Virus record (IMG/VR): IMGVR_UViG_3300037882_001196
Span: 751-64,750 of that record
Length of the DNA stretch: 64,000 nucleotides
Strand: one strand, 5' to 3'
Source: a virus
Taxonomy: Duplodnaviria; Caudoviricetes
Position 1 is the first letter of the stretch. Every line of letters starts with the position of its first letter. A model generated the notes under the pieces. It ran no database searches. It saw only the letters and a program-made list of their open reading frames with translations, and was not told the origin of the DNA. Both the position numbers and the translations under genes were made by a program. Positions 41,254 through 63,738 of the stretch are shown piece after piece.

Positions 41254-41703
41254 CTACTTACTTCCGTGAATTTCTAATATGCCTTTAGCAAAAGCTAACA
41301 TTTGATCAATTGTAGCGTTCTGTTTCATTCGATTAGCTAAGTCAGAAATTATTTGGATATTTCCCGGTATGTATCCTTTAGTTGAATCAATCCTATCAAT
41401 ACTAGCAGTATCAAATGTTCTGATTTTCTTGCCTGGATTTTCTCTATAAACTAGTTTCAATTTTAAGTAACAACAAAATTCTGGGGTTGGTATATCTTGA
41501 ATACATATACTGTGTTCAACTCCTCTAGTAGCAGCATTCATTCTTGAAGAGGTTAAAAGAGGTATTCTTTTGTCTTTAGTGAAGTGTTTTGAACAGATGA
41601 ATCTATGACACCGTTTACAAAACTTATATCTGGCCCCAGTTTTGTAGTAGTAAAAATCTGTATCATATTTTATTTGCTTACATCTTTTACATAAAATCCT
41701 CAT
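41254..41703 (-). CDS. HNH-type homing endonuclease-like protein
   Basis: CKRC...CKRC Zn finger and SIDRIDSTKGYIPGNIQIIS..ANRMK. Confidence 0.8.
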   Translation of the reverse strand: MRILCKRCKQIKYDTDFYYYKTGARYKFCKRCHRFICSKHFTKDKRIPLLTSSRMNAATRGVEHSICIQDIPTPEFCCYLKLKLVYRENPGKKIRTFDTASIDRIDSTKGYIPGNIQIISDLANRMKQNATIDQMLAFAKGILEIHGSK

Positions 41704-41717
41704 CTGTATTTTCCCTC

Positions 41718-41757
41718 TACTCTACTTACTTATAAGTAATTATAAGTAAGTAGAGTA
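41718..41757. repeat. Perfect 18-bp inverted repeat
   Basis: TACTCTACTTACTTATAA-GTAA-TTATAAGTAAGTAGAGTA. Confidence 0.95.
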
Positions 41758-42694: not shown

Positions 42695-42798
42695 TTACTA
42701 TTTCGGGGGATAATTAGGAGTCAGATATTTGTGTTTAACTTATTTGAGAGATATAGGTTGGTGGCCCCTCACAGGCACTCACTTATGTCTCTCATTTT

Positions 42799-42872
<74 letters not shown>

Positions 42873-42874
42873 TG

Positions 42875-43031
42875 TCTCAAAAGTTGACGACAGAATAGAT
42901 AAGCAGCGAGTAGCCAATAAGCTAGAACCCTATTCAGATTGAAAGCAGGGAGTGCAGTAGTTGGTGATGTCTGGTGGTGTCCTTTCCGTAAGGTGGAAAG
43001 CGGCAGCTGGGACCATAGTTGACTTTTGAGA
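42875..43031 (+). ncRNA. Unknown structured RNA between the two tRNAs
   Basis: 14-bp closing stem (two G-U pairs) plus internal helices. Confidence 0.55.
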
Positions 43032-43033
43032 AC

Positions 43034-43106
43034 CGATCTGTAGCTCAACGGTTAGAGCAGGACACTCATAATGTCTTGGTTCCCGGTTCAAATCCGGGCA
43101 GATCGA
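43034..43106 (+). tRNA. tRNA with CAT anticodon, most like Ile2 (lysidine type); elongator Met not excluded
   Basis: CGATCTG/CAGATCG acceptor, GGACA-CTCATAA-TGTCT and GGTTCAAATCC. Confidence 0.88.
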
Positions 43107-43136
43107 CTTCCTTTTCCTTAATTTGGAGTATCAAAG

Positions 43137-49057: not shown

Positions 49058-49222
49058 TCTAGTAACCTCCCTAACGGCAAACCTTGAGAGACTACTAGAT
49101 ACCGATTCGGTTAGGTTATAGGCTTTCTATGACGCTCTAGGAGGCTTCCTAACGGTCGATCTAAGGTTAGGGTGGAGTAAGTTACCTAGAACCTAGATCG
49201 ACCGTTAAAGAGGCTACTAGGA
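49058..49222. repeat. Two CTAG-armed palindromes
   Basis: TCTAGTAACCTC...GAGACTACTAGA, and a perfect core TAACGGTCGATCTA/TAGATCGACCGTTA. Confidence 0.7.
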
Positions 49223-49531
49223 TTACTTCGTAGCGGTGGCCTGAGCCGCAGCGAACGCCTTACGCTCCTTTTGGCCTTTTTCGGTCAGGAGCCAATAGTA
49301 TTGTAGGTAGACTGTCTTCAATCCTGTCATCCGACTTTTCATCAACGAACGAACTCCGTCTGCTACGGGAGCCACATCAATGAATTGACACAAACCGTAA
49401 CTGTCGTGCATCTCTCCATTAAAAGACGCACGAAGAAAATAATCATCACCAGTATATACAGATTTAATAACCAAAGCCTTACTGAGAATTTCCCACACTT
49501 CGGACTCAGTTAATACGTTAGCCATTATCAA
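49223..49531 (-). CDS. Hypothetical protein
   Basis: GAGGA RBS just downstream of the hammerhead. Confidence 0.55.
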   Translation of the reverse strand: MIMANVLTESEVWEILSKALVIKSVYTGDDYFLRASFNGEMHDSYGLCQFIDVAPVADGVRSLMKSRMTGLKTVYLQYYWLLTEKGQKERKAFAAAQATATK

Positions 49532-49539
49532 TTCCTCTT

Positions 49540-49596
49540 GGTCTCATCAGTACCAGCACCTTACTGGTAGACGCTCGTGGGCGGAGCGTTTCGACC
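49540..49596 (-). ncRNA. Type II hammerhead ribozyme 1
   Basis: Minus strand GGTC-GAAAC-GCTC(CGCCCAC)GAGC-GTC^TACCAG(TAAGGTG)CTGGTA-CTGATGA-GACC. Confidence 0.9.
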
Positions 49597-51191
49597 TAGC
49601 TCACGAAAACCAGCTTCTTGATCGCACGAGTGATTGCGACGTATAGAAGGTTGTATTCCTGCTCGATAGCCCACGGAGTCTTTGCCATCGGATGGGGGCA
49701 CTCGGCACCTTTCGGACGGAGAAGGTAAACCGTATCAGCTTCCAACCCTTTGCTCTTGTGGATGCTGCTGAGCCGGATACCCTTGATGTCCTTGTCGTCG
49801 GTGAAGACCGTGTCGATTTTGGCGATGACTTGAGCAACGGTATCAGCCCCTTCCGTGAAGGCAAGAATACAATCAACCTTATCATCAATCGCCATCAGAC
49901 GCGATTCGCTCGGAGTCTTCTTGGTCGTTTCTTTTTCACGTTCCTTCTCCGCCCAAGTGGATAACTTCTCCGTGAGCGTTGGGATGTCGGTGACGTTGAA
50001 CTTGTTGATCAAGGAAGTCAAACCCCGACCGACATCACGACCTAGAATCACAGCCTTCTTCCCACGCTTGATAAAGCTGAAGCACTGGGAGACTAGGGGG
50101 GCATTCGTCCGGCACACGATCATGTCCCCGTCGCGGACGGTAGGACCGTAAGACTTTTCCCACGTCACTTCGGGAACGCCTAGCGGTGTTGCTTTCGCTG
50201 GGTAGGCCATACGCAGAATCTCCCCTTCTCCGTTTGACTCGTGGGCTTCAAAGTCAGACACCAGCTTTTTGGCTTCCGTCACGACAGCCTTGCCGCAGCG
50301 ACGGGTAACTGTGAGTGGTAGCGTAACACAATCCTCAAGTTCTTTTCCAATCCGGTCCATCGACTCACAATCAGCACCCGCGAACCCGTAGATGGCTTGC
50401 TTTGGATCACCGCAGAGGATAAGACGGCGACCAGCTTTCTTCGCCAACGCTTGTTGACAGCGGTTCAGGTCTTGGGCTTCGTCAACCAACAGCAGATCGT
50501 AGCGGAACATCGGGAGATTAAGCACGACCGGGAGCCAAACCATATCGGTGAAGTCAATTGAACCCGTGCGAGCAACGTCCTTACACGCAGCGACGATTCG
50601 TGGAACCAAGCTGAAAATCTCATCCCGCGAATCGTTGGTCTCAATATTGTAGATGTAACAAAGTTCTTGGAGGCTTCCAGCGTCCGTCTCCGAGAGGGTA
50701 GCACGAACCAGATCAACGAGTTGCTTCGTGGCGTTGATCGTTACTGGCTTGTTGCGGCGAAGGTCACGAATATCAGCGTGAAGTTCTTGCTCAATCAACC
50801 GTTCAACACGGTACTGGTCGATGCCACCCTTACCACGAAGGTACGGGAACGCTGCGGTACAGGCCTTGAGACCCATCGAGTGCATCGTCATCGCTTCACA
50901 GCCTACGGGAACTCGCTGCTTCAACTCCTCCGCGATGCCCTTGTTGAAGGCCACGAAGCAGATCGTTTTCGCATCTGCCGAGAGTTTGAGTTGTTCCCAA
51001 ATCGCTGCTTGTTGGGTACTCGGAGTGATTTTCGTCGGTATCCCTTTGAGGTGCTTAAGCCCCTCTACCAACGTCGTGGTCTTACCCGTTCCCGCACGAG
51101 CGATAACCATGAGGTGGGACGGAACGTTGCTAGGCGTCGTGGTAGCAGCTTTGATCTTCGCTGCGAACGGGCTGGTTTTCTTCGTTGACAT
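49596..51191 (-). CDS. UvrD/Rep-like SF1 helicase
   Basis: ARAGTGKTT, VDEAQD, GDPKQAIYGF, TRRC, SKGLE and YVAITRA. Confidence 0.92.
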   Translation of the reverse strand: MSTKKTSPFAAKIKAATTTPSNVPSHLMVIARAGTGKTTTLVEGLKHLKGIPTKITPSTQQAAIWEQLKLSADAKTICFVAFNKGIAEELKQRVPVGCEAMTMHSMGLKACTAAFPYLRGKGGIDQYRVERLIEQELHADIRDLRRNKPVTINATKQLVDLVRATLSETDAGSLQELCYIYNIETNDSRDEIFSLVPRIVAACKDVARTGSIDFTDMVWLPVVLNLPMFRYDLLLVDEAQDLNRCQQALAKKAGRRLILCGDPKQAIYGFAGADCESMDRIGKELEDCVTLPLTVTRRCGKAVVTEAKKLVSDFEAHESNGEGEILRMAYPAKATPLGVPEVTWEKSYGPTVRDGDMIVCRTNAPLVSQCFSFIKRGKKAVILGRDVGRGLTSLINKFNVTDIPTLTEKLSTWAEKEREKETTKKTPSESRLMAIDDKVDCILAFTEGADTVAQVIAKIDTVFTDDKDIKGIRLSSIHKSKGLEADTVYLLRPKGAECPHPMAKTPWAIEQEYNLLYVAITRAIKKLVFVS

Positions 51192-53938: not shown

Positions 53939-54119
53939 GATTCACCGATGATTGACGTGCTTGTCGTTCAATCCGTTCAATCTTCGCCACCTTCAGGCGG
54001 AGATTCGTTCGCTCAATCACCGAACGCTCGATGATCTGATTGAGTTCATCAATGCGCTCCAACGCCTCTTGTTTGATTGTTGGAAACTGGGTTGAGACAG
54101 CGAGTTCAGATTGGTGCAT
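53925..54119 (-). CDS. Small coiled-coil protein
   Basis: Overlapping, coupled ORF. Confidence 0.45.
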   Translation of the reverse strand: MHQSELAVSTQFPTIKQEALERIDELNQIIERSVIERTNLRLKVAKIERIERQARQSSVNHGQS

Positions 54120-54418
54120 CTTTTGATCCTATAATCGTGAGGACAATATTTGCCTGACACCGAACAACGACCGTTTCGCCGTTCGCAAGTGTCAAGGGAA
54201 CGTGGATTTTTGGGTTATGAAACCACCCAAGGCCACCACTACCAAATTCCTTGGGTTGCAACAACACTAGGTTGCCGTCGATTCTGATTGCGACGCTTGA
54301 CACGTCCGAAGTTCCGACCGTTGCGGCGAAAAACTCAGAACGGGTTACCGGGCATGGTTCCTTCGGTGCCTTCTGGTCCGGTTCCAGTGCCTTCGGTTTG
54401 ATCCTCTTCTTTGCCACG
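54106..54418 (-). CDS. Hypothetical beta-rich protein (start uncertain)
   Basis: GGAGG-preceded GTG. KEFGSGGLGWF motif. Confidence 0.5.
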
Positions 54419-54631
54419 TTGACGCTCCTCCAGCCAGCGATTTTGCCAGCTTCCAAAGTCTTTCATCATCCGGCTGATACAGCCCTCACACAGATCGAAT
54501 TTGGGCGTGATCATCGTCTTAGTCTTGCCTTCGATTTTGCCGGGCATCATGACCTTGTTGAAGTCAAGGGTAACTCGGAACGCAGGTTCATCGACCTTAC
54601 GACACCCGTCGCACACCATCAGCATTGCCAT
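54335..54631 (-). CDS. Zn-finger protein
   Basis: CDGC...DLCEGC and GGAGGG RBS. Confidence 0.55.
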   Translation of the reverse strand: MAMLMVCDGCRKVDEPAFRVTLDFNKVMMPGKIEGKTKTMITPKFDLCEGCISRMMKDFGSWQNRWLEERQRGKEEDQTEGTGTGPEGTEGTMPGNPF

Positions 54632-54656
54632 ACAAACCCCTCCAGTTGGTTTAGTC

Positions 54657-54718
54657 TGCCATCATCAGGGACAGGGGGACCAACCCTATCCGACGTTCGT
54701 GGGCGGAACGTTTCGGCA
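54657..54718 (-). ncRNA. Type II hammerhead ribozyme 2
   Basis: Minus strand TGCC-GAAAC-GTTC(CGCCCAC)GAAC-GTC^GGATAGGG(TTGGTCC)CCCTGTCC-CTGATGA-T-GGCA. Confidence 0.88.
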
Positions 54719-57147: not shown

Positions 57148-57353
57148 TGAATTCTATTCAGTTAATCACAGTCGAAGTAACTCCAAGTATGTTAATTGAT
57201 TTAGCTAAGAAGTTACAAACTCGTTGGGATAAAGCCGAAATTGGTGAAGAATTACCTAGAGTAGTTCTTGATGTAAGCCAACAAATAAGAATTGAGTTGG
57301 TTATTGATCAAGAAGCAATGCATACAAAAAATCAAAAATCAGAGAGGGTATAA
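57144..57353 (+). CDS. Hypothetical protein
   Basis: Coupled ORF. Confidence 0.5.
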   Translation: MMNSIQLITVEVTPSMLIDLAKKLQTRWDKAEIGEELPRVVLDVSQQIRIELVIDQEAMHTKNQKSERV

Positions 57354-58456
57354 TGTCACTTAAAGACAAAATCAAGGCAACTCAGAATAAGGGACCACTG
57401 TGGAAAGGACCAGAGGTAGATGGGATTACTCAATCTATGCTTGGTCGATTCTTGGTGTGCAAAGAGCGTTTCCGAGTTCAATACATTGAAGGGTTGGTGC
57501 CGACAGAAGACCGATTCAACCACCGTCTCGAATATGGCCAGATGTGGCATGTTTGCGAGGAAGCAGTAGCGAACAAAGATGATTGGAAGGAGAAGCTCAC
57601 GGAGTACACGAACCGACTCAAGTTCCAGTACCTTATGCAACAAGCAGAGGTAGTGAAGTGGAAGAACGTTTGTGAGAAGCAATTTGAGGTCTATCTTGAC
57701 TATTGGAAAGACAAGAAGACTGAAGCAACTCCATTACTCACGGAGTATACTTTTGCTCACCGCTATCAACTGCCTAGTGGGCGGCTGATTCTCCTGAGAG
57801 GGAAGATGGACGGAGTCTTTAAGCAAACCCATACGGTTGGTCCGCCAACGGTTTGGTTGAAGGAGAACAAGACCAAGAGCGAAATAAACGAGATGGATAT
57901 CCAGCGTCAGCTTGGATTTGATCTACAGACGATGATGTATCTACTCGTGCTTCACGGCGAACAGAAGAGTATGCAAGACACAACAATCAAGACTAGAACC
58001 TCTTCTGTCAAGAACGGAATCAGAACCTTTTGGCCGATTCAAGGGGTTATGTACAATGTCATCCGCCGACCACTCTCAGGAGGTTCGGGAAGTATCCGCC
58101 AACATAAGCCAACCAAAAGTAATCCAGCAGGAGAATCGGAAGCGGATTACTATGAACGCTTGAAAGGAGTTATTCAAGAAGCACCAGAAACATTCTTTGC
58201 TCGTTGGGAATCGAGCGTAAGCCTACCAATGATGCTGCAGTTCAAACAGAGGTTTTTTATTCCATTGCTGGAGTACGTTGCTTATTGGTATGATGAAATA
58301 GTGAAAGGGCAACTACCACTAGGTCACTGGCAACATCCGTTTGGTATCTATAATCCGATGGATGAAGGAGGGTATTCCGACGTTGATGATTACCTACTGA
58401 CGGGGAATCGGGCTGGATTGAAACGCCAAGAATCACTATTTGGAGAACTGACTTGA
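57353..58456 (+). CDS. PD-(D/E)XK exonuclease (RecB/Cas4-like)
   Basis: G..WH...E, RGKMDG, ENKT and Q...Y. Confidence 0.8.
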   Translation: MSLKDKIKATQNKGPLWKGPEVDGITQSMLGRFLVCKERFRVQYIEGLVPTEDRFNHRLEYGQMWHVCEEAVANKDDWKEKLTEYTNRLKFQYLMQQAEVVKWKNVCEKQFEVYLDYWKDKKTEATPLLTEYTFAHRYQLPSGRLILLRGKMDGVFKQTHTVGPPTVWLKENKTKSEINEMDIQRQLGFDLQTMMYLLVLHGEQKSMQDTTIKTRTSSVKNGIRTFWPIQGVMYNVIRRPLSGGSGSIRQHKPTKSNPAGESEADYYERLKGVIQEAPETFFARWESSVSLPMMLQFKQRFFIPLLEYVAYWYDEIVKGQLPLGHWQHPFGIYNPMDEGGYSDVDDYLLTGNRAGLKRQESLFGELT

Positions 58457-58757: not shown

Positions 58758-59627
58758 ATGCCACCGAAACCAACGAAACTGAAACCACAACCATCCAAGA
58801 CTACAACCCAGATCAAGACAGGTAGTATTCTGTCTCGCATCCGACCGCTATATGAGATTGACGATAGTGGTTTGAAGATGGCCATCTACGGTCAGAGCGG
58901 TTCGGGAAAGACAACCCTGTGGGCGACGTTTCCCAAACCGATTCTGGTGTTAATCTGCTCTGGGATTACCGAAGCAGGAGAACTACGGTCAGTCAACACA
59001 GAGGAATATCGAGACGTTATTCACCCACTTTACCTTCACGACACGGATGACATTCGTAAGGTAGTTGATGAATTGAATCAAGACAATCCGTATGCAACAG
59101 TTGTAGCAGACCACGCTACGGGTATCCAAGACTTCACTTTGAAGGAGATTCTTGGTCTCAGTTCAATCCCTTCGCAGAAAGGTTGGGGTATTGCCACCCA
59201 GCAACAATGGGGACAATGTACACTCCAAACCAAAGAGTTATTGCGAGGACTTCTTGGGTTGAAGAGTAACGTGGTGATCGTTGCTCAAGAGCGTTCCTTT
59301 GGAGATGATAACAACAGCGACACAATCAAACCAGTAATCGGAGCAGCCCTAACACCGGGAGCAGCGAGTTGGTTAAACAGCACCGTGGATTATATTGGGC
59401 AAATGTTCAAGCGACAAAAGTCAGAAGAAGTGTCAACGAAGATCGGCGACAAAGTCATGAAGACTCGGAAGATGGTTACTGGGGTTGACTACTGCCTACG
59501 GACTGCTCCTGATTCAGTCTACACCACGAAGTTCCGAGTGCCACGCAGCTTCTCCGTTCCAGATGTTATTGTTGATCCGACGTATGAGAAGATCATCGAA
59601 GTAATCAGCGGAACCTACGAAGGGTAA
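58758..59627 (+). CDS. AAA_24 / Sak4-like recombination ATPase
   Basis: IYGQSGSGKTT, VVAD and IVAQE. Confidence 0.85.
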   Translation: MPPKPTKLKPQPSKTTTQIKTGSILSRIRPLYEIDDSGLKMAIYGQSGSGKTTLWATFPKPILVLICSGITEAGELRSVNTEEYRDVIHPLYLHDTDDIRKVVDELNQDNPYATVVADHATGIQDFTLKEILGLSSIPSQKGWGIATQQQWGQCTLQTKELLRGLLGLKSNVVIVAQERSFGDDNNSDTIKPVIGAALTPGAASWLNSTVDYIGQMFKRQKSEEVSTKIGDKVMKTRKMVTGVDYCLRTAPDSVYTTKFRVPRSFSVPDVIVDPTYEKIIEVISGTYEG

Positions 59628-59781
59628 ACGCTTTACGCCTCTATTTCCCTTTCCTTTCGGAATCGGTTATAGTTTTCTTTCTGGCTGGGTGAGAGTGGAA
59701 AGCATCTTGCGAGTGGTGCTGACCAAACCGTCTCTCACCCAGTCTTTTTCTTACAAGTATCTCGCAAGGGGAATTACGGTT

Positions 59782-60957
59782 ATGCCTCCAGTAAAACAAA
59801 ACACGAGCGGTGGGTTGTTCAAGAAGTTGGGCACTGCGTTGGCCAAAGCCCACGAAGCCCACAAAGACGAAGAAGTCAAATACTCAAACATGGGTGATCT
59901 TCCACCCGGAATCAATAACGGGATTGCTCAGTTAGTTGAGTGTAAGTTCAGCCAATATGAGAAAGGAGACCAAGCAGGTGAATACTTCTTCTACGCTGCG
60001 GGCGTGGTAGTCTCCCCCACAGAGCACAAGGGACTTCGGATTACAGGACTACGAACGTCGATCATGGAACCGTTGTGCGACACGCCAACCCGTTCCCGCA
60101 AAACGGTCGATGAGCACGTGGGTTGGATTTACAACGAGTTGCGGAAACTCGGATGCGATACCTCAAGCCTGACTCCAGACAATCTGGAAGAAGTTGCGGC
60201 AATGCTGAAGGAAGCAAAACCGTTCTTTCAATTCCGAACTTGGGCTGGACAACCCTCTGCCGAGTATCCTGACCCACGAACAAATCACACTTGGAACGGG
60301 GTTTGTGAATTTACTCCGAGTGAAGATGGCACAACGTCAGGAGTCCAAGACAACGGAGACGACAACGAACCAGCACCCGAATCGAAGCCAACCAAGACGA
60401 CGGCAGCACCGAAAGCCACTCCAACGACTGCTGCTTCAAAGACGACGGCGACAACGACAAAGACCGCTACGAAGCCGACAGCCCCAGTCAAGAAGGAACC
60501 TGAGCCGGAACCGGGACCAGAGTTCAATGAGTTTCAAGACCTTGACTCGCTGGGAGAAGCTGCCCAAGAGAACGGCGAAGATGGAGCCATTGACCGATTG
60601 ACCGAAATGGCGTTGGCTGCGGGGATGACTCAAGAAGACATCGATGGAGCAGAAAGCTGGCTGGCTGTGGTTCAGTTCATCAAGGAGAATCCAACAACAC
60701 CAGAAGATTCAACAGAGGGAGAAGAGGAACCAGAGCCAGAACCAGAAGGACCGAAGGTTGATGACGTCTACAAATATCAACCAAATGACCCAAAAACGAA
60801 GAAGCCAGCAATCAACCCGAAAACCAAGAAACCTCTCATCGTCGAATGTACGGTGACAAGGGTTGCTGAGAGGAAGCAGACGGTTGATCTACTGAATCTG
60901 GACGATGGTAAGACAGTCTACAAAGCAGTTGCGTGGACAGCCCTTATCCGCGACTAG
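59782..60957 (+). CDS. Probable single-stranded DNA-binding protein with Thr/Pro/acidic extension
   Basis: LPPG..(OB-like) N-terminus after the Sak4-like gene, and an acidic tail. Confidence 0.5.
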   Translation: MPPVKQNTSGGLFKKLGTALAKAHEAHKDEEVKYSNMGDLPPGINNGIAQLVECKFSQYEKGDQAGEYFFYAAGVVVSPTEHKGLRITGLRTSIMEPLCDTPTRSRKTVDEHVGWIYNELRKLGCDTSSLTPDNLEEVAAMLKEAKPFFQFRTWAGQPSAEYPDPRTNHTWNGVCEFTPSEDGTTSGVQDNGDDNEPAPESKPTKTTAAPKATPTTAASKTTATTTKTATKPTAPVKKEPEPEPGPEFNEFQDLDSLGEAAQENGEDGAIDRLTEMALAAGMTQEDIDGAESWLAVVQFIKENPTTPEDSTEGEEEPEPEPEGPKVDDVYKYQPNDPKTKKPAINPKTKKPLIVECTVTRVAERKQTVDLLNLDDGKTVYKAVAWTALIRD

Positions 60958-60959
60958 GA

Positions 60960-61390
60960 AACACTACGTGCCTGAAAAGGTGAGTCAGCGTAGTCAGGTG
61001 GTTGGTACCCACACTCCAACTTAGATTGAGTCACTCATCCTCTTGATGGGACTTAACACCAAACAAGCTGAGGCAAGCAGTATGCCAAGAGCACCGCCCG
61101 GATAGCCTATAATTCATCACCGATGAATCCAGTTGAGCGGAGATAAGTTCAACTCCAGTTGTCTAGGTCACTGGGTAAACTAACGTAAAGTACCGTAAGG
61201 CACACATAATGCTAGGTTGGGGCTAACCGCCTGTGAGTAAAGTCCAACTATTAACATGCTCCTGTTCAATACTCCAGTTGAACACAAAGCAGATTGCGGG
61301 GTGTAAAATGTAACCTTCATTTTTCTACGGAGAGGACCAGAGGGGGAGTTATCCGCATCAGGGATTTACGTACCTTTACTCCCCCTCACT
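60960..61390 (+). ncRNA. Long hairpin-rich non-coding tract
   Basis: No ORF of 60 aa or more. About ten consecutive stems. Confidence 0.5.
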
Positions 61391-61392
61391 TA

Positions 61393-61464
61393 CCTCCAAT
61401 CGTCTAAAGGAAAGACACCTGATACCCACTCAGGAAATAGGCTGTTCGATTCAGCTACGGGGGC
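61393..61464 (+). other. tRNA-like element (degenerate, nominal anticodon CCC)
   Basis: GTCT/AGAC D stem, CCTGA-TACCCAC-TCAGG, GGCTG-TTCGATT-CAGCT. Acceptor stem has 5 of 7 pairs. Confidence 0.6.
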
Positions 61465-61494
61465 TTGATCTAAATATGTCGGAAACTCGCAAAC

Positions 61495-63738
61495 ATGAAT
61501 ATCTCTTTTGATACAGAAACAACAGGCGTAGACCGTTTCCACGGTGCTAAGCCTTTTTTCTTTACCACTTGCAACGAAGCAGGAGAGGTTGAATACATCG
61601 AGTGGGATGTTGATCCTATTACTCGACAACCAATCGTAATTATAGATGATGTGGAGTGGATTACTGATTTGTTGTCTACTTCAGGTTGCGACTCAATCAT
61701 TTTTCATAATGCGAAATTTGACGTTGCGATGTTGGCGACGATTCGCAAAGAGTTTGGTAATTGGGATTGGGACCGTACTCACGACACACTTCTGATGGCC
61801 CACTTACTTTACAGCAACCGACCGAAGAACCTAACCGACCTTGGTATTCAGATCGTAGGGAAAGATATTGAGCCTCTTGAAATTGAATTGAAGAAAGCCT
61901 GCGACGAAGCACGCCGAATCGCACGGAGTAAGTACAAAGATTGGATGATCGCAAAAGCAGACCTACCTTGTATGCCCTCTGCGGGGGAGAAGGTTTGGAA
62001 GTATGATACTTGGCTTCCACGACGTATTGCCCAAGAAGAAAGCTATTCAGCCGACCATCCGTGGTGGACGGTACTCTCGGATTATGCCAACGCTGACTCG
62101 ATGATGACGGTGGCGTTATTCAAAGCCTGTATCCAACTTATCCGCGAACGGGGGTTAGAGAAGTTATACAACACACGACGCCAGATGCTTCCCACGATCT
62201 ATGAAATGGAACAGAATGGTATCACGATGAGTCGTGACCGCTATGAAGAACTACTCACAGAATACACAGAAGAGAAGGAGAAGGCATCGAACGTTTGTGT
62301 CAACATTGCAGCAGATATTGGCTACGAATTGAACCTACCAAAGAGTGGTAACAACAAGTCACTCTTAAATTTCTGCTTTGGAGAATCGACGGGAACCTGC
62401 GAAGTCTGTGGAGAATCCCAGAAGATTCCAGACAAGGAGAAAGCCAAGAAGCTGAAGGAACAAGGACGCACTTGTAACTTCTGTAAGCAGGCCGGTAAAA
62501 CGAGTCCAATACGTTTTGACATCATCGAAGGACTCAACCTACCAATCGTCGGACTAACAGACAGCGGCAACCCGTCACTCGACAAGAACGTGCTGGAGAA
62601 CTACCTATTAACTCTCCCCCAGAGAAGTAAGCAGCGAACCTTCGTTGATAAATTAGCAGCACTTCGGAAACGTAGCACTGCCATATCCTATATGGAAAGC
62701 TATACACGATTCTGGTTGCCTGCTTTTGAAGATGTTGGAGAGGATTTATTCCAACACTGGATGCGTCTCCATCCGTCGCTGAATCCCACAGGTACAGATA
62801 CATTGCGTTGTTCGAGCAGTAACCCGAACGAACAGAACATCAGCAAGAAGGAAGGATTCAACCTGCGATATTTATGTGGACCTCTGCCCGGACGGGAGTG
62901 GTGGAGTTGTGATGCGAGAGGGATTGAAGATCGTCTTCCTGCTTATGAAAGTCAACAAGATGAACTCATAACAATTTTTGAGAAACCAGATGAGCCACCC
63001 TATTATGGAAGCAACCATCTCCTTCGGTTCCATACGGTATATCCTGATATCTGGGAGCAGACCTATTCAGTACTCAAAGTTCAATTTGGAGATTCTGAAG
63101 CCTACAAAAAAGTGGGCCCAACTTGTAAAAAGCAGTACGCATCGACTTATTACCAATGGGTCAAGAACGGCGGTTTTGCCGTACAGTATGGTGCCATTGA
63201 CAGAGCGGACGGTAAGGGAACCGCAGACCTAGCTTTCCATCGACCAGGATGCCATGCTTTACTCAAGGAACGCTTCTCAAAGTTAGAAGCACTCAATCAG
63301 AAGCAGATTCGCCATGCGGAGAAGTTTGGCTACGTCGAAACGATTCCTGACAGAGACGTAGACCCAAAGCGTGGGTATCCGCTGTTGTGTACTCGCACGG
63401 AATGGGGTAAGATTCTACCAACCGTGCCTCTCAACTATCACATCCAAGGAACGGCGATGTGGTGGATGATGATGGCGATGATTCGCGTCCATCGGCTAAT
63501 GAAGGAGTGGAGACAAAAAGGGTTTGACGCAAGACTCGTGATGCAGATTCACGACGAACTTGTGTTTGATTTTCCGAAGTCAAAAGAAGACCCACAAGCC
63601 AACCCAAAGAAGTCAAACCTGTGGCGGATTCGAGCCATTCAAAAGGAAATGGAAAAAGGGGGACTTGGTTTAGGTATACCAACCCCGACAAGCTGCGAGT
63701 ATCATCCAGACAACTGGAGTACTGGCATCTCATTTTGA
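61495..63738 (+). CDS. polA: DNA polymerase family A with 3'-5' exonuclease
   Basis: DTETTG, HNAKFD, TGTDTLRCSSSNPNEQNI, K...F...YG and QIHDEL. Confidence 0.92.
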   Translation: MNISFDTETTGVDRFHGAKPFFFTTCNEAGEVEYIEWDVDPITRQPIVIIDDVEWITDLLSTSGCDSIIFHNAKFDVAMLATIRKEFGNWDWDRTHDTLLMAHLLYSNRPKNLTDLGIQIVGKDIEPLEIELKKACDEARRIARSKYKDWMIAKADLPCMPSAGEKVWKYDTWLPRRIAQEESYSADHPWWTVLSDYANADSMMTVALFKACIQLIRERGLEKLYNTRRQMLPTIYEMEQNGITMSRDRYEELLTEYTEEKEKASNVCVNIAADIGYELNLPKSGNNKSLLNFCFGESTGTCEVCGESQKIPDKEKAKKLKEQGRTCNFCKQAGKTSPIRFDIIEGLNLPIVGLTDSGNPSLDKNVLENYLLTLPQRSKQRTFVDKLAALRKRSTAISYMESYTRFWLPAFEDVGEDLFQHWMRLHPSLNPTGTDTLRCSSSNPNEQNISKKEGFNLRYLCGPLPGREWWSCDARGIEDRLPAYESQQDELITIFEKPDEPPYYGSNHLLRFHTVYPDIWEQTYSVLKVQFGDSEAYKKVGPTCKKQYASTYYQWVKNGGFAVQYGAIDRADGKGTADLAFHRPGCHALLKERFSKLEALNQKQIRHAEKFGYVETIPDRDVDPKRGYPLLCTRTEWGKILPTVPLNYHIQGTAMWWMMMAMIRVHRLMKEWRQKGFDARLVMQIHDELVFDFPKSKEDPQANPKKSNLWRIRAIQKEMEKGGLGLGIPTPTSCEYHPDNWSTGISF

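What the first reader, a model, noticed from the sequence alone, without database searches (positions are those of the whole stretch)
60960..61390. ~430-nt hairpin-dense non-coding tract before the polymerase
This is the largest ORF-free gap in a compact genome. Successive stems include CTACG/CGTAG, CCT-GAAA-AGG, TGAGTC..CATC/GATG..GACTTA, ATTCATC/GATGAAT, GTTGAGC/GTTCAAC, CCAGT/ACTGG, CC-GTAA-GG, GTTGGGGCT/AGTCCAAC, TGTTCAA/TTGAACA, AAAATG/CATTTT and GAGGGGGAGT/ACTCCCCCTC. ACTCCAGTTG occurs twice. Large tRNA-associated phage RNAs (GOLLD, ROOL) are precedents, but I cannot match this to them.
Basis: partly seen in the sequence, partly recalled or inferred. Interest (0 to 1): 0.7.

Follow-up and report, generated by a model that had tools for sequence, protein, structure and literature searches.

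The report
Orphan spacer ending in tRNA-like element
The gap before this phage's DNA polymerase gene is truly non-coding, but its only recognisable part is a degenerate tRNA-shaped element at its end, and nothing shows the rest to be a conserved large RNA.

Summary
The ORF-free tract is real and longer than reported. It runs 60958-61494 (537 nt) and is the largest gap in the window. Every frame has 8-16 stops of all three kinds.

All 11 listed stems exist, but hairpin density is only modestly raised. There are 6 perfect stems of 6 bp or more, against 2.4 in shuffles; 9 of 138 same-size genome windows have as many. The + strand folds at z about -3 and the - strand at -0.09. However, 3 of 20 and 3 of 59 control windows fold as well.

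Rfam gives nothing in the tract, so it does not match GOLLD or ROOL. No DNA or protein homologue was found anywhere.

Relaxed ARAGORN finds it, and so does my own tRNA model (22.5 bits, E 4e-4).

In relatives, the same slot between the 422-aa gene and polA holds tRNAs or tRNA-like elements in 13 of 40 loci. In 44 relatives the non-coding stretch just before polA is never longer than 279 nt.

Verdict: a lineage-specific untranslated spacer plus a tRNA-derived module, probably a processing site. A novel large RNA is not excluded but is unsupported.

The parts
59689..60957 (+). Upstream flanking gene: 422-aa protein with an acidic, low-complexity middle. It has no Pfam or PHROG family. Homologues sit after the AAA_24 gene in relatives.
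60958..61494 (+). The whole ORF-free intergenic gap (537 nt).
60963..60994 (+). Hairpin directly after the stop codon: ACUACGU/GCGUAGU with an inner GCCU-GAAA-AGGU. Pair probabilities are 0.94-0.97. No T-run follows it.
60996..61232 (+). Predicted domain 1. It is closed by a 10 + 11 bp long-range helix (60996-61005/61223-61232 and 61014-61024/61212-61222) that contains five G-U pairs. It encloses four to five hairpins. z = -3.08.
61126..61283 (+). Three copies of (A/C)TCCAGTTG, at 61126, 61152 and 61271. Each lies in or next to the quasi-palindromic hairpins AGTTGAGC/GTTCAACT and TGTTCAA/TTGAACA.
61340..61387 (+). Perfect 10-bp hairpin GAGGGGGAGT/ACTCCCCCTC with a 28-nt loop. Pair probability is 0.99. 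No T-run follows it.
61393..61464 (+). tRNA-like cloverleaf.
- Canonical features: 4-bp D stem with GG in its loop, 5-bp anticodon stem, 5-nt variable loop, 5-bp T stem with the canonical loop TTCGATT.
- Departures: the anticodon loop is UACCCAC (A at position 33, 'CCC'), and the acceptor stem has only 5 of 7 pairs.
   Evidence: not called by default ARAGORN or Rfam
61258..61265 (+). Alternative distal partner (GCUCCUGU) of the acceptor 3' strand 61457-61464. The helix is 8 bp with two G-U pairs and has pair probability 0.84. A match of this quality is expected by chance in roughly 15-40% of cases (my own estimate).
61465..61494 (+). 30-nt stretch between the tRNA-like element and the polA ATG. 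It has no Shine-Dalgarno-like motif.
61495..63738 (+). Downstream flanking gene: family A DNA polymerase with an N-terminal 3'-5' exonuclease-like region.

Best explanation
The tract is the untranslated content of a variable 'tRNA slot'. This slot lies between the 422-aa gene and polA in the replication module of this group of tailed phages.

Its only recognisable element is a tRNA-derived cloverleaf at 61393-61464, 30 nt before the polA start. It can no longer be an ordinary decoding tRNA: it has A33, two mismatches at the base of the acceptor stem, and C1.

The 435 nt in front of it are a lineage-specific non-coding spacer with ordinary-to-moderate local hairpin content. They are not a member of any described RNA family.

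Inferred mechanism. The whole gap is transcribed with the rightward replication genes, since no + strand promoter-like or terminator-like site was found. The tRNA-like module is then recognised by host tRNA-end-processing enzymes (RNase P at 61392/61393 and a 3' endonuclease near 61464). This cuts the polA message free from the upstream message and leaves it a short leader without a Shine-Dalgarno motif.

What is shown: non-coding status, tRNA-likeness, conserved slot, and absence of homologues. What is inferred: co-transcription and cleavage.
For: tRNA-likeness of 61393-61464:
- Relaxed ARAGORN calls exactly three elements in the 64-kb window: the two real tRNAs and 61393-61464. Twenty shuffles of the window gave 2 calls in all.
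- A covariance model built from 8 genuine tRNAs of this phage group ranks 61393-61465 third in the window, at 22.5 bits and E 4e-4. The next hit scores 10.4 bits.

The slot in relatives:
- The gene order AAA_24, 422-aa homologue, slot, polA is conserved.
- The same model run on 40 relatives (313 kb, both strands) gives 15 hits at E <= 1 in 11 loci. All are on the + strand and all lie upstream of polA.
- Relaxed ARAGORN and a T-arm pattern add L043 and L045, making 13 of 40 loci.
- T-arm hairpins with a TTCRANY loop: 22 of 22 are on the + strand upstream of polA, and none is elsewhere in the window stretch plus L011-L090.
- In the window, L042, L043 and L045 the T arm lies 39-62 nt before the polA start.
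- L029, L042 and L043 keep a perfect or near-perfect 7-bp acceptor stem and T arm around a middle that is not tRNA-like. This suggests selection on the part that processing enzymes read.

The spacer:
- 44 relatives have -11 to 279 nt before polA.
- No homologue or decayed ORF was detected.
- There is no promoter-like or terminator-like site on the + strand of the gap.
- polA lacks a Shine-Dalgarno-like motif, which 34 of 48 large ORFs have.

Supporting context:
- The same genome carries two Hammerhead_II ribozymes within its leftward gene block, so transcript cutting by RNA elements is in use here (passages of PMC3088659).
Against: - There are no expression or cleavage data of any kind.
- Rfam's tRNA model gives no match at E <= 10 even on a 121-nt stretch, and default ARAGORN does not call the element.
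- The acceptor stem, the main determinant for RNase P, is the weakest part of the cloverleaf at 5 of 7 pairs.
- No CCA follows the element.
- The element could equally be a decaying tRNA gene without function.
- The + strand-specific folding (z about -3 against -0.09 on the - strand, and about -1.4 as DNA) and the high pair probabilities of two long-range helices fit a purposeful RNA fold better than a passive spacer.
- Twenty-seven of the 40 relatives show no tRNA-like element in the slot.
Confidence: 0.4

Rival explanations
1. Neutral relic. The slot once held a working tRNA gene, and perhaps small ORFs, as in relatives. The tRNA has begun to decay and the rest is drifting non-coding DNA with no function beyond separating two genes.
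For: - The cloverleaf fails default tRNA detectors and carries defects at positions that matter for decoding.
- The window's working tRNA-Arg(TCT) and tRNA-Met(CAT) lie elsewhere, at 42798-43107. L020 has the same two isotypes in the slot.
- No homologue of the spacer exists among 80 related loci or in 50,697 phage records.
- Hairpin counts and z-scores lie within the genome's own upper 5-15%.
Against: - No trace of decayed ORFs was found: tblastn of 4372 stop-free segments from relatives hit only the end of the 422-aa gene.
- Compact phage genomes rarely keep 0.5 kb of junk. The next largest gap is 279 nt.
- All helices of the cloverleaf other than the acceptor stem are intact, and the T and D loops are canonical.
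- Folding is strand-specific.
Confidence: 0.3
2. A new large structured non-coding RNA of about 430-530 nt. It would have two closed domains (60996-61232 and 61233-61490). The second domain would embed tRNA-like arms and be closed by a distal acceptor-like helix. It would be analogous to, but unrelated to, the tRNA-linked phage RNAs GOLLD and ROOL.
For: - + strand z is -2.7 to -3.3, with 0-2 shuffles reaching it, while the - strand gives -0.09 and ssDNA about -1.4.
- Long-range helices have pair probabilities of 0.84-0.96.
- A tRNA-like element is adjacent. GOLLD and ROOL are reported often near tRNA islands of phages (passages of 10.1101/2024.12.08.627333).
- It is the largest non-coding gap of the genome.
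Against: - No Rfam match.
- No homologue was found, so no covariation test was possible.
- Control windows reach the same z: 3 of 20 and 3 of 59. Domain boundaries were also chosen after folding, which flatters z.
- 150-nt windows are unremarkable.
- Spacers of relatives show z from +0.2 to -5.3 without being related to this one.
Confidence: 0.13
3. A DNA-level element: a replication origin, or operator sites for a DNA-binding protein. This reading is built on the three TCCAGTTG copies and the palindromes beside the polymerase gene.
For: - The tract lies inside the replication module.
- The motif occurs 3 times within 155 nt, embedded in quasi-palindromes.
- Perfect inverted repeats are somewhat enriched.
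Against: - There is no AT-rich stretch; GC is 0.445-0.515 across the gap, close to that of the flanking genes.
- Cumulative GC skew shows no switch at 61 kb.
- Motif spacing is irregular, at 26 and 119 nt.
- Window-wide enrichment of the motif is weak: 11 matches against 5.4 expected, and 2 of 100 shuffles reach this.
- As ssDNA, both strands fold at only z about -1.4.
Confidence: 0.08
4. A working but unusual decoding tRNA-Gly(CCC), with the upstream 435 nt as its promoter and leader region.
For: - The cloverleaf geometry is complete, with a canonical T loop, G18-G19 and a 5-nt variable loop.
- The slot carries genuine tRNAs in L013, L020, L023, L026 and L031.
Against: - Position 33 is A where U is nearly universal (my own knowledge).
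- A6-C67 and A7-A66 are mismatches, and the first pair is C1-G72.
- The element is below Rfam and default ARAGORN thresholds.
- No sigma-70-like promoter was found in the gap.
Confidence: 0.05

Closest known systems
GOLLD and ROOL, the large ornate phage and prophage RNAs
   Same: Phage-encoded and non-coding, hundreds of nucleotides long, and lying next to tRNA-type sequence. Both classes are reported as often near tRNA islands, and tRNAs are sometimes found in the GOLLD linker (passages of 10.1101/2024.12.08.627333).
   Different: - No match to any Rfam 15 model, at gathering score or at E <= 10.
- Many GOLLD members exceed 800 nt (same paper), while this tract is 435-537 nt.
- Those families are defined by covariation across many homologues. 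This tract has no homologue in hand.
Phage tRNA genes and degenerate (pseudo-)tRNAs in phage tRNA clusters
   Same: - 61393-61464 has a full cloverleaf with a canonical T loop and D-loop GG.
- It occupies the slot where relatives carry tRNA-Met, Arg, Leu and a CTA-anticodon tRNA.
   Different: - A33, only 5 of 7 acceptor pairs, and C1.
- Scores 22.5 bits on my model, against 84-88 bits for the window's real tRNAs.
- Below Rfam and default ARAGORN thresholds.
tRNA-like processing signals: mitochondrial 'tRNA punctuation', RNase P cleavage of tRNA-like structures, mascRNA (recalled from my own knowledge; not read here)
   Same: A tRNA-shaped module sits between two same-strand genes, with the downstream gene starting 30 nt after it. 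Relatives keep the acceptor stem and T arm while the middle varies.
   Different: No cleavage or transcript-end data exist for this phage. The acceptor stem here is imperfect.
Translational operators of phage T4 replication genes 43 and 32 (recalled from my own knowledge; not read here)
   Same: Structured untranslated RNA lies immediately upstream of a phage DNA polymerase gene that lacks a strong ribosome-binding motif. The predicted fold pairs 61481-61490 with 61233-61245.
   Different: As I recall, those operators are short hairpins or pseudoknots defined by protein binding. Here there are 537 nt, no binding data and no conservation.
Hammerhead ribozymes flanking gene blocks in phage and prophage genomes (PMC3088659, passages read)
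   Same: The same genome has two Hammerhead_II matches within its leftward operon. This is a precedent for RNA-element-driven transcript cutting in this phage.
   Different: The tract itself has no ribozyme match at E <= 10.

Membership tests
GOLLD RNA | Match to the family covariance model (conserved 3' region) | tested here: not met
   No Rfam 15 match in the gap at gathering score, or at E <= 10 on 60700-61700.
GOLLD RNA | Size (many members exceed 800 nt) and location near phage tRNAs | tested here: inconclusive
   The tract is 435-537 nt. A tRNA-like element is adjacent. The size statement comes from passages of 10.1101/2024.12.08.627333.
ROOL RNA | Match to the family covariance model | tested here: not met
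   No Rfam match.
Canonical tRNA | Score at or above the Rfam tRNA gathering threshold, or a default ARAGORN call | tested here: not met
   The element is found only with relaxed ARAGORN.
Canonical tRNA | Cloverleaf with a 7-bp acceptor stem, D arm, anticodon arm, and T arm with a T-loop | tested here: inconclusive
   The D, anticodon and T arms and the loop lengths are canonical. The acceptor stem has 5 of 7 pairs. My own tRNA model gives 22.5 bits, E 4e-4.
Canonical tRNA | U33 and a purine at position 37 in a 7-nt anticodon loop | tested here: not met
   The loop is UACCCAC, so position 33 is A; position 37 is A.
tmRNA | tRNA-like domain plus a tag reading frame, found by ARAGORN or Rfam | tested here: not met
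   ARAGORN -m finds none, even at relaxed settings. Rfam finds none.
Self-cleaving ribozymes (hammerhead, HDV-like/theta, twister and others in Rfam) | Match to a family model within the tract | tested here: not met
   The hammerheads of this genome lie elsewhere, on the minus strand.
Intrinsic terminator or sigma-70 promoter | Consensus-type site on the + strand of the gap | tested here: not met
   no + strand site inside 60958-61494. The host and its promoter type are unknown.
tRNA-like RNA-processing signal | Cleavage by RNase P or RNase Z at the ends of the element | not testable with these tools
   No RNA data: no sequencing run was listed.

The most novel reading that the evidence does not exclude
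A group of uncultured tailed phages keeps tRNA-shaped modules in a fixed slot upstream of their DNA polymerase gene. These modules have an intact acceptor stem and T arm but a replaced or expanded middle. They act as built-in punctuation marks for host tRNA-processing enzymes. The window's 537-nt tract is the largest version: a two-domain RNA whose second domain is a tRNA-like fold closed by a distal acceptor helix (61258-61265/61457-64), possibly also controlling translation of the SD-less polA message.
Probability: 0.12. Interest if true: 0.6.

Novelty: new member of a known kind. Interest (0 to 1): 0.3.

Why it matters
As filed, as a candidate GOLLD/ROOL-like giant RNA, the tract does not hold up, so it should not be counted as a new large RNA class on present evidence.

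What remains useful is a reproducible observation. The position between the 422-aa gene and polA is a tRNA hot-spot in this phage group. Several occupants, including the window's, look like tRNA mimics rather than decoding tRNAs.

If these mimics are cut by RNase P or RNase Z, they would be a bacterial-virus counterpart of mitochondrial tRNA punctuation. They would also explain how polA gets its own message.

Tried and rejected
Searches for homologues of the tract, all empty:
- blastn against 50,697 phage records.
- BLAST in four related viral records.
- Word-7 blastn against all fetched loci; best E 0.36.
- Three exact-pattern scans of viral contigs. Two gave 0 hits. One gave 102 stretches; blastn of the gap against them returned only one 23-nt match (E 0.031), so I take them as unrelated.

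Closer relatives sought by protein:
- polA in viral contigs, metagenome contigs and genome contigs; the best polA identity found was 52%.
- The 422-aa protein in viral contigs; none found.

Other attempts:
- Sequencing runs: none was listed and no RNA holder was listed.
- Earlier findings of this scan: nothing relevant.

Ideas tested and dropped:
- Decayed gene: tblastn with the ORFs of relatives and of the window itself gave noise only, apart from the end of the 422-aa gene.
- Alternative genetic code: rejected.
- Further tRNA-like pieces in the first 435 nt: none, by relaxed ARAGORN or by my tRNA model.
- An insertion flanked by the TGGTACCCAC/TGATACCCAC direct repeat: rejected by reading the sequence. 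No tRNA 5' half lies before the first copy, and the cloverleaf is already complete.
- Origin of replication: no support from composition or skew.
- Alignment of the window's gap with those of L004 and L002 showed no convincing homology.
- Rfam on L054:1780-2300, to name its split tRNA-like gene, gave only T-arm-level matches.

Not attempted: a single-sequence covariance model of the predicted domains. The relatives in hand have no gap long enough to hold them.

Full report
**Context**

The window is nearly all of a 64,750-bp viral record estimated 91% complete. It is a tailed phage with terminase, portal, tape measure, primase/helicase and helicase genes.

Around the finding, the rightward genes are:
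- a PD-(D/E)XK nuclease (57353-58456);
- an AAA_24 protein (58758-59627);
- a 422-aa protein with no family (59689-60957);
- a family A DNA polymerase (61495-63738).

**The observation**

The gap between the last two genes is 60958-61494, 537 nt.
- It is the largest gap between greedily chosen ORFs of 60 aa or more; the next is 279 nt.
- All six frames carry 8-16 stops, and all three stop types occur in each, so no stop-codon reassignment opens it.
- None of its + strand mini-ORFs has a Shine-Dalgarno-like motif.
Nine are used in the minimum-free-energy fold. The other two are displaced by long-range helices.
- ACTCCAGTTG occurs twice, with a third 9/10 copy.

**Is it more than chance?**

Hairpin counts in 60958-61392 (perfect stems, loops of 3-30 nt):

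| Stem length | Observed | Shuffle mean | Shuffles reaching it | Genome windows reaching it |
|---|---|---|---|---|
| 5 bp or more | 12 | 9.36 | 70 of 300 | 49 of 138 |
| 6 bp or more | 6 | 2.39 | 7 of 300 | 9 of 138 |
| 7 bp or more | 3 | 0.61 | 4 of 300 | 9 of 138 |

Folding:
- The - strand gives -0.09.
- As ssDNA, both strands give about -1.4. The excess stability therefore rests on G-U pairs of the + strand.

Points against reading much into this:
- 3 of 20 arbitrary 537-nt windows of the same genome reach z <= -3.17.
- 3 of 59 arbitrary 239-nt windows reach z <= -3.0.
- 150-nt windows inside the gap are no better than the flanking coding sequence.
- My domain boundaries were chosen after folding, which flatters z.
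- Intergenic spacers at the same position in relatives range from z +0.2 to -5.3.

The thermodynamic signal is therefore suggestive, not distinctive.

**Known families**

Rfam 15 finds only four elements in the window at gathering score: two tRNAs (42.8-43.1 kb) and two Hammerhead_II matches on the minus strand. Nothing in the gap reaches E <= 10. GOLLD, ROOL, tmRNA, ribozymes and riboswitches are thus not matched.

- Default ARAGORN and Rfam do not call it.
- Relaxed ARAGORN calls it tRNA-Gly(CCC)-like. Its D, anticodon and T arms and its T loop (TTCGATT) are canonical. It has A at position 33 and two mismatches at the base of the acceptor stem.
- At the same relaxed setting the whole window gives only this element and the two real tRNAs. 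Twenty shuffles of the window gave two calls in all.
- As an independent check, I built a covariance model from eight genuine tRNAs of this phage group. With filters off, it ranks 61393-61465 third in the window, at 22.5 bits and E 4e-4. The next hit scores 10.4 bits.

**Relatives**

No close relative is available; the best polA identity is 52%. The gene order AAA_24, 422-aa homologue, slot, polA is conserved.

Length of the non-coding stretch before polA:
- In 44 relatives it is -11 to 279 nt.
- In many of them the slot also holds one or two small ORFs.

tRNAs and tRNA-like elements in the slot:
- Genuine tRNAs are found in L013, L020 (three), L023, L026 and L031.
- My model finds 15 hits at E <= 1 in 11 of 40 non-redundant loci. 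All are on the + strand and all lie upstream of polA.
- Relaxed ARAGORN and a T-arm pattern add L043 and L045.
- All 22 T-arm hairpins with a TTCRANY loop found in the window stretch plus L011-L090 lie on the + strand upstream of polA.
- In the window, L042, L043 and L045 the T arm sits 39-62 nt before the polA start.
- L029, L042 and L043 keep a perfect or near-perfect 7-bp acceptor stem and T arm around a middle that is not tRNA-like.

The slot is therefore a tRNA hot-spot, and several occupants look like mimics rather than decoding tRNAs.

**The 435 nt in front of the cloverleaf**

- No nucleotide homologue was found.
- There is no trace of a decayed ORF.
- No further tRNA-like piece was found.
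- No + strand promoter-like or terminator-like site was found.
- There is no compositional or skew anomaly.

The fold predicts two closed domains with pair probabilities of 0.84-0.96 for the closing helices. In the second domain, GCUCCUGU (61258-61265) pairs with the acceptor 3' strand, and 61233-61245 pairs with the last bases before the polA ATG. By my estimate, a distal acceptor match of that quality is expected by chance in roughly 15-40% of cases. polA has no Shine-Dalgarno-like motif, whereas 34 of 48 large ORFs do.

**Reading**

Most likely (0.4), this is the untranslated content of the variable tRNA slot: a lineage-specific spacer co-transcribed with the replication genes, ending in a tRNA-derived module. 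That module serves as a cutting site for host tRNA-processing enzymes and gives polA its own short leader. Co-transcription and cleavage are inferred, not shown.

The rivals are:
- a neutral relic (0.3);
- a new large structured RNA (0.13);
- a DNA-level origin or operator (0.08);
- an odd but working tRNA-Gly (0.05).

The large-RNA reading keeps some weight because of the strand-specific stability and the unusual size of the gap. It lacks any comparative support.

**Literature seen**

- GOLLD and ROOL are described as encoded in phages and prophages, often near tRNA islands. Many GOLLD members exceed 800 nt (passages of 10.1101/2024.12.08.627333).
- Hammerheads often flank genes or short gene blocks in prophages, suggesting transcript processing (passages of PMC3088659).
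- Theta ribozymes are HDV-like and lie next to phage tRNAs (search listing and start of the abstract of PMC10879173).
- Statements about T4 translational operators, mitochondrial tRNA punctuation, mascRNA and the near-universality of U33 are recalled, not read here.

**Verdict**

What is there is a new member of a known kind: a phage tRNA-like element in an intergenic spacer. Interest is low to moderate.

Noticed in passing
window 54650-54718 (-) and 49536-49596 (-): Two Hammerhead_II matches at or above the Rfam gathering score of 37 bits (47.3 and 38.4 bits). One lies about 194 nt upstream of the first leftward ORF (54106-54456). The other lies exactly between the helicase gene (49596-51191) and the next leftward ORF (49223-49531). 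This fits the published pattern of hammerheads flanking gene blocks in phages.
   Followed up: partly
window 61465-61497: The polA start (ATG at 61495) has no Shine-Dalgarno-like motif within 20 nt. 34 of 48 ORFs of 150 aa or more do have one.
   Followed up: partly
window 61004-61011 and L043:2811-2818 (= L004): GTACCCAC starts 47 nt after the stop of the 422-aa gene homologue in both phages, although the gaps otherwise do not align. TACCCAC is also the 'anticodon' loop of the window's tRNA-like element (61423-61429). It was not seen at that offset in the other relatives.
   Followed up: partly
L054:2005-2232: This looks like a tRNA-Cys(GCA) gene. It has a perfect 7-bp acceptor stem, a D arm, the anticodon loop CUGCAAA and a T arm, but is interrupted by about 155 nt after the anticodon loop. 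Rfam gave no intron or other family match.
   Followed up: partly
L029:1727-1836, L042:1894-2023, L043:2882-2962, L016:~2614-2712: tRNA-like elements of 81-130 nt. Each has an acceptor stem (7 bp, perfect or near-perfect, in L029, L042 and L043) and a canonical T arm, but an expanded or non-tRNA middle. All lie between the 422-aa gene homologue and polA.
   Followed up: partly
L031, L032 and L052: 1337-1408: A tRNA with anticodon CTA, which would read the amber stop codon, scoring 62 bits on the Rfam tRNA model. It lies in the same slot and is followed by two degenerate tRNA-like elements at 1674-1837.
   Followed up: no
window 42798-42873 and 43034-43107: The window's genuine tRNA-Arg(TCT) and tRNA-Met(CAT) lie about 18 kb away from the polA slot. 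L020 carries the same two isotypes, plus tRNA-Leu, inside the slot.
   Followed up: no
window 41718-41757 and 49150-49207: The longest perfect hairpins of the window: 18 bp with a 4-nt loop at 41718-41757, next to the end of the leftward ORF 41254-41703, and 14 bp with a 30-nt loop at 49150-49207.
   Followed up: no
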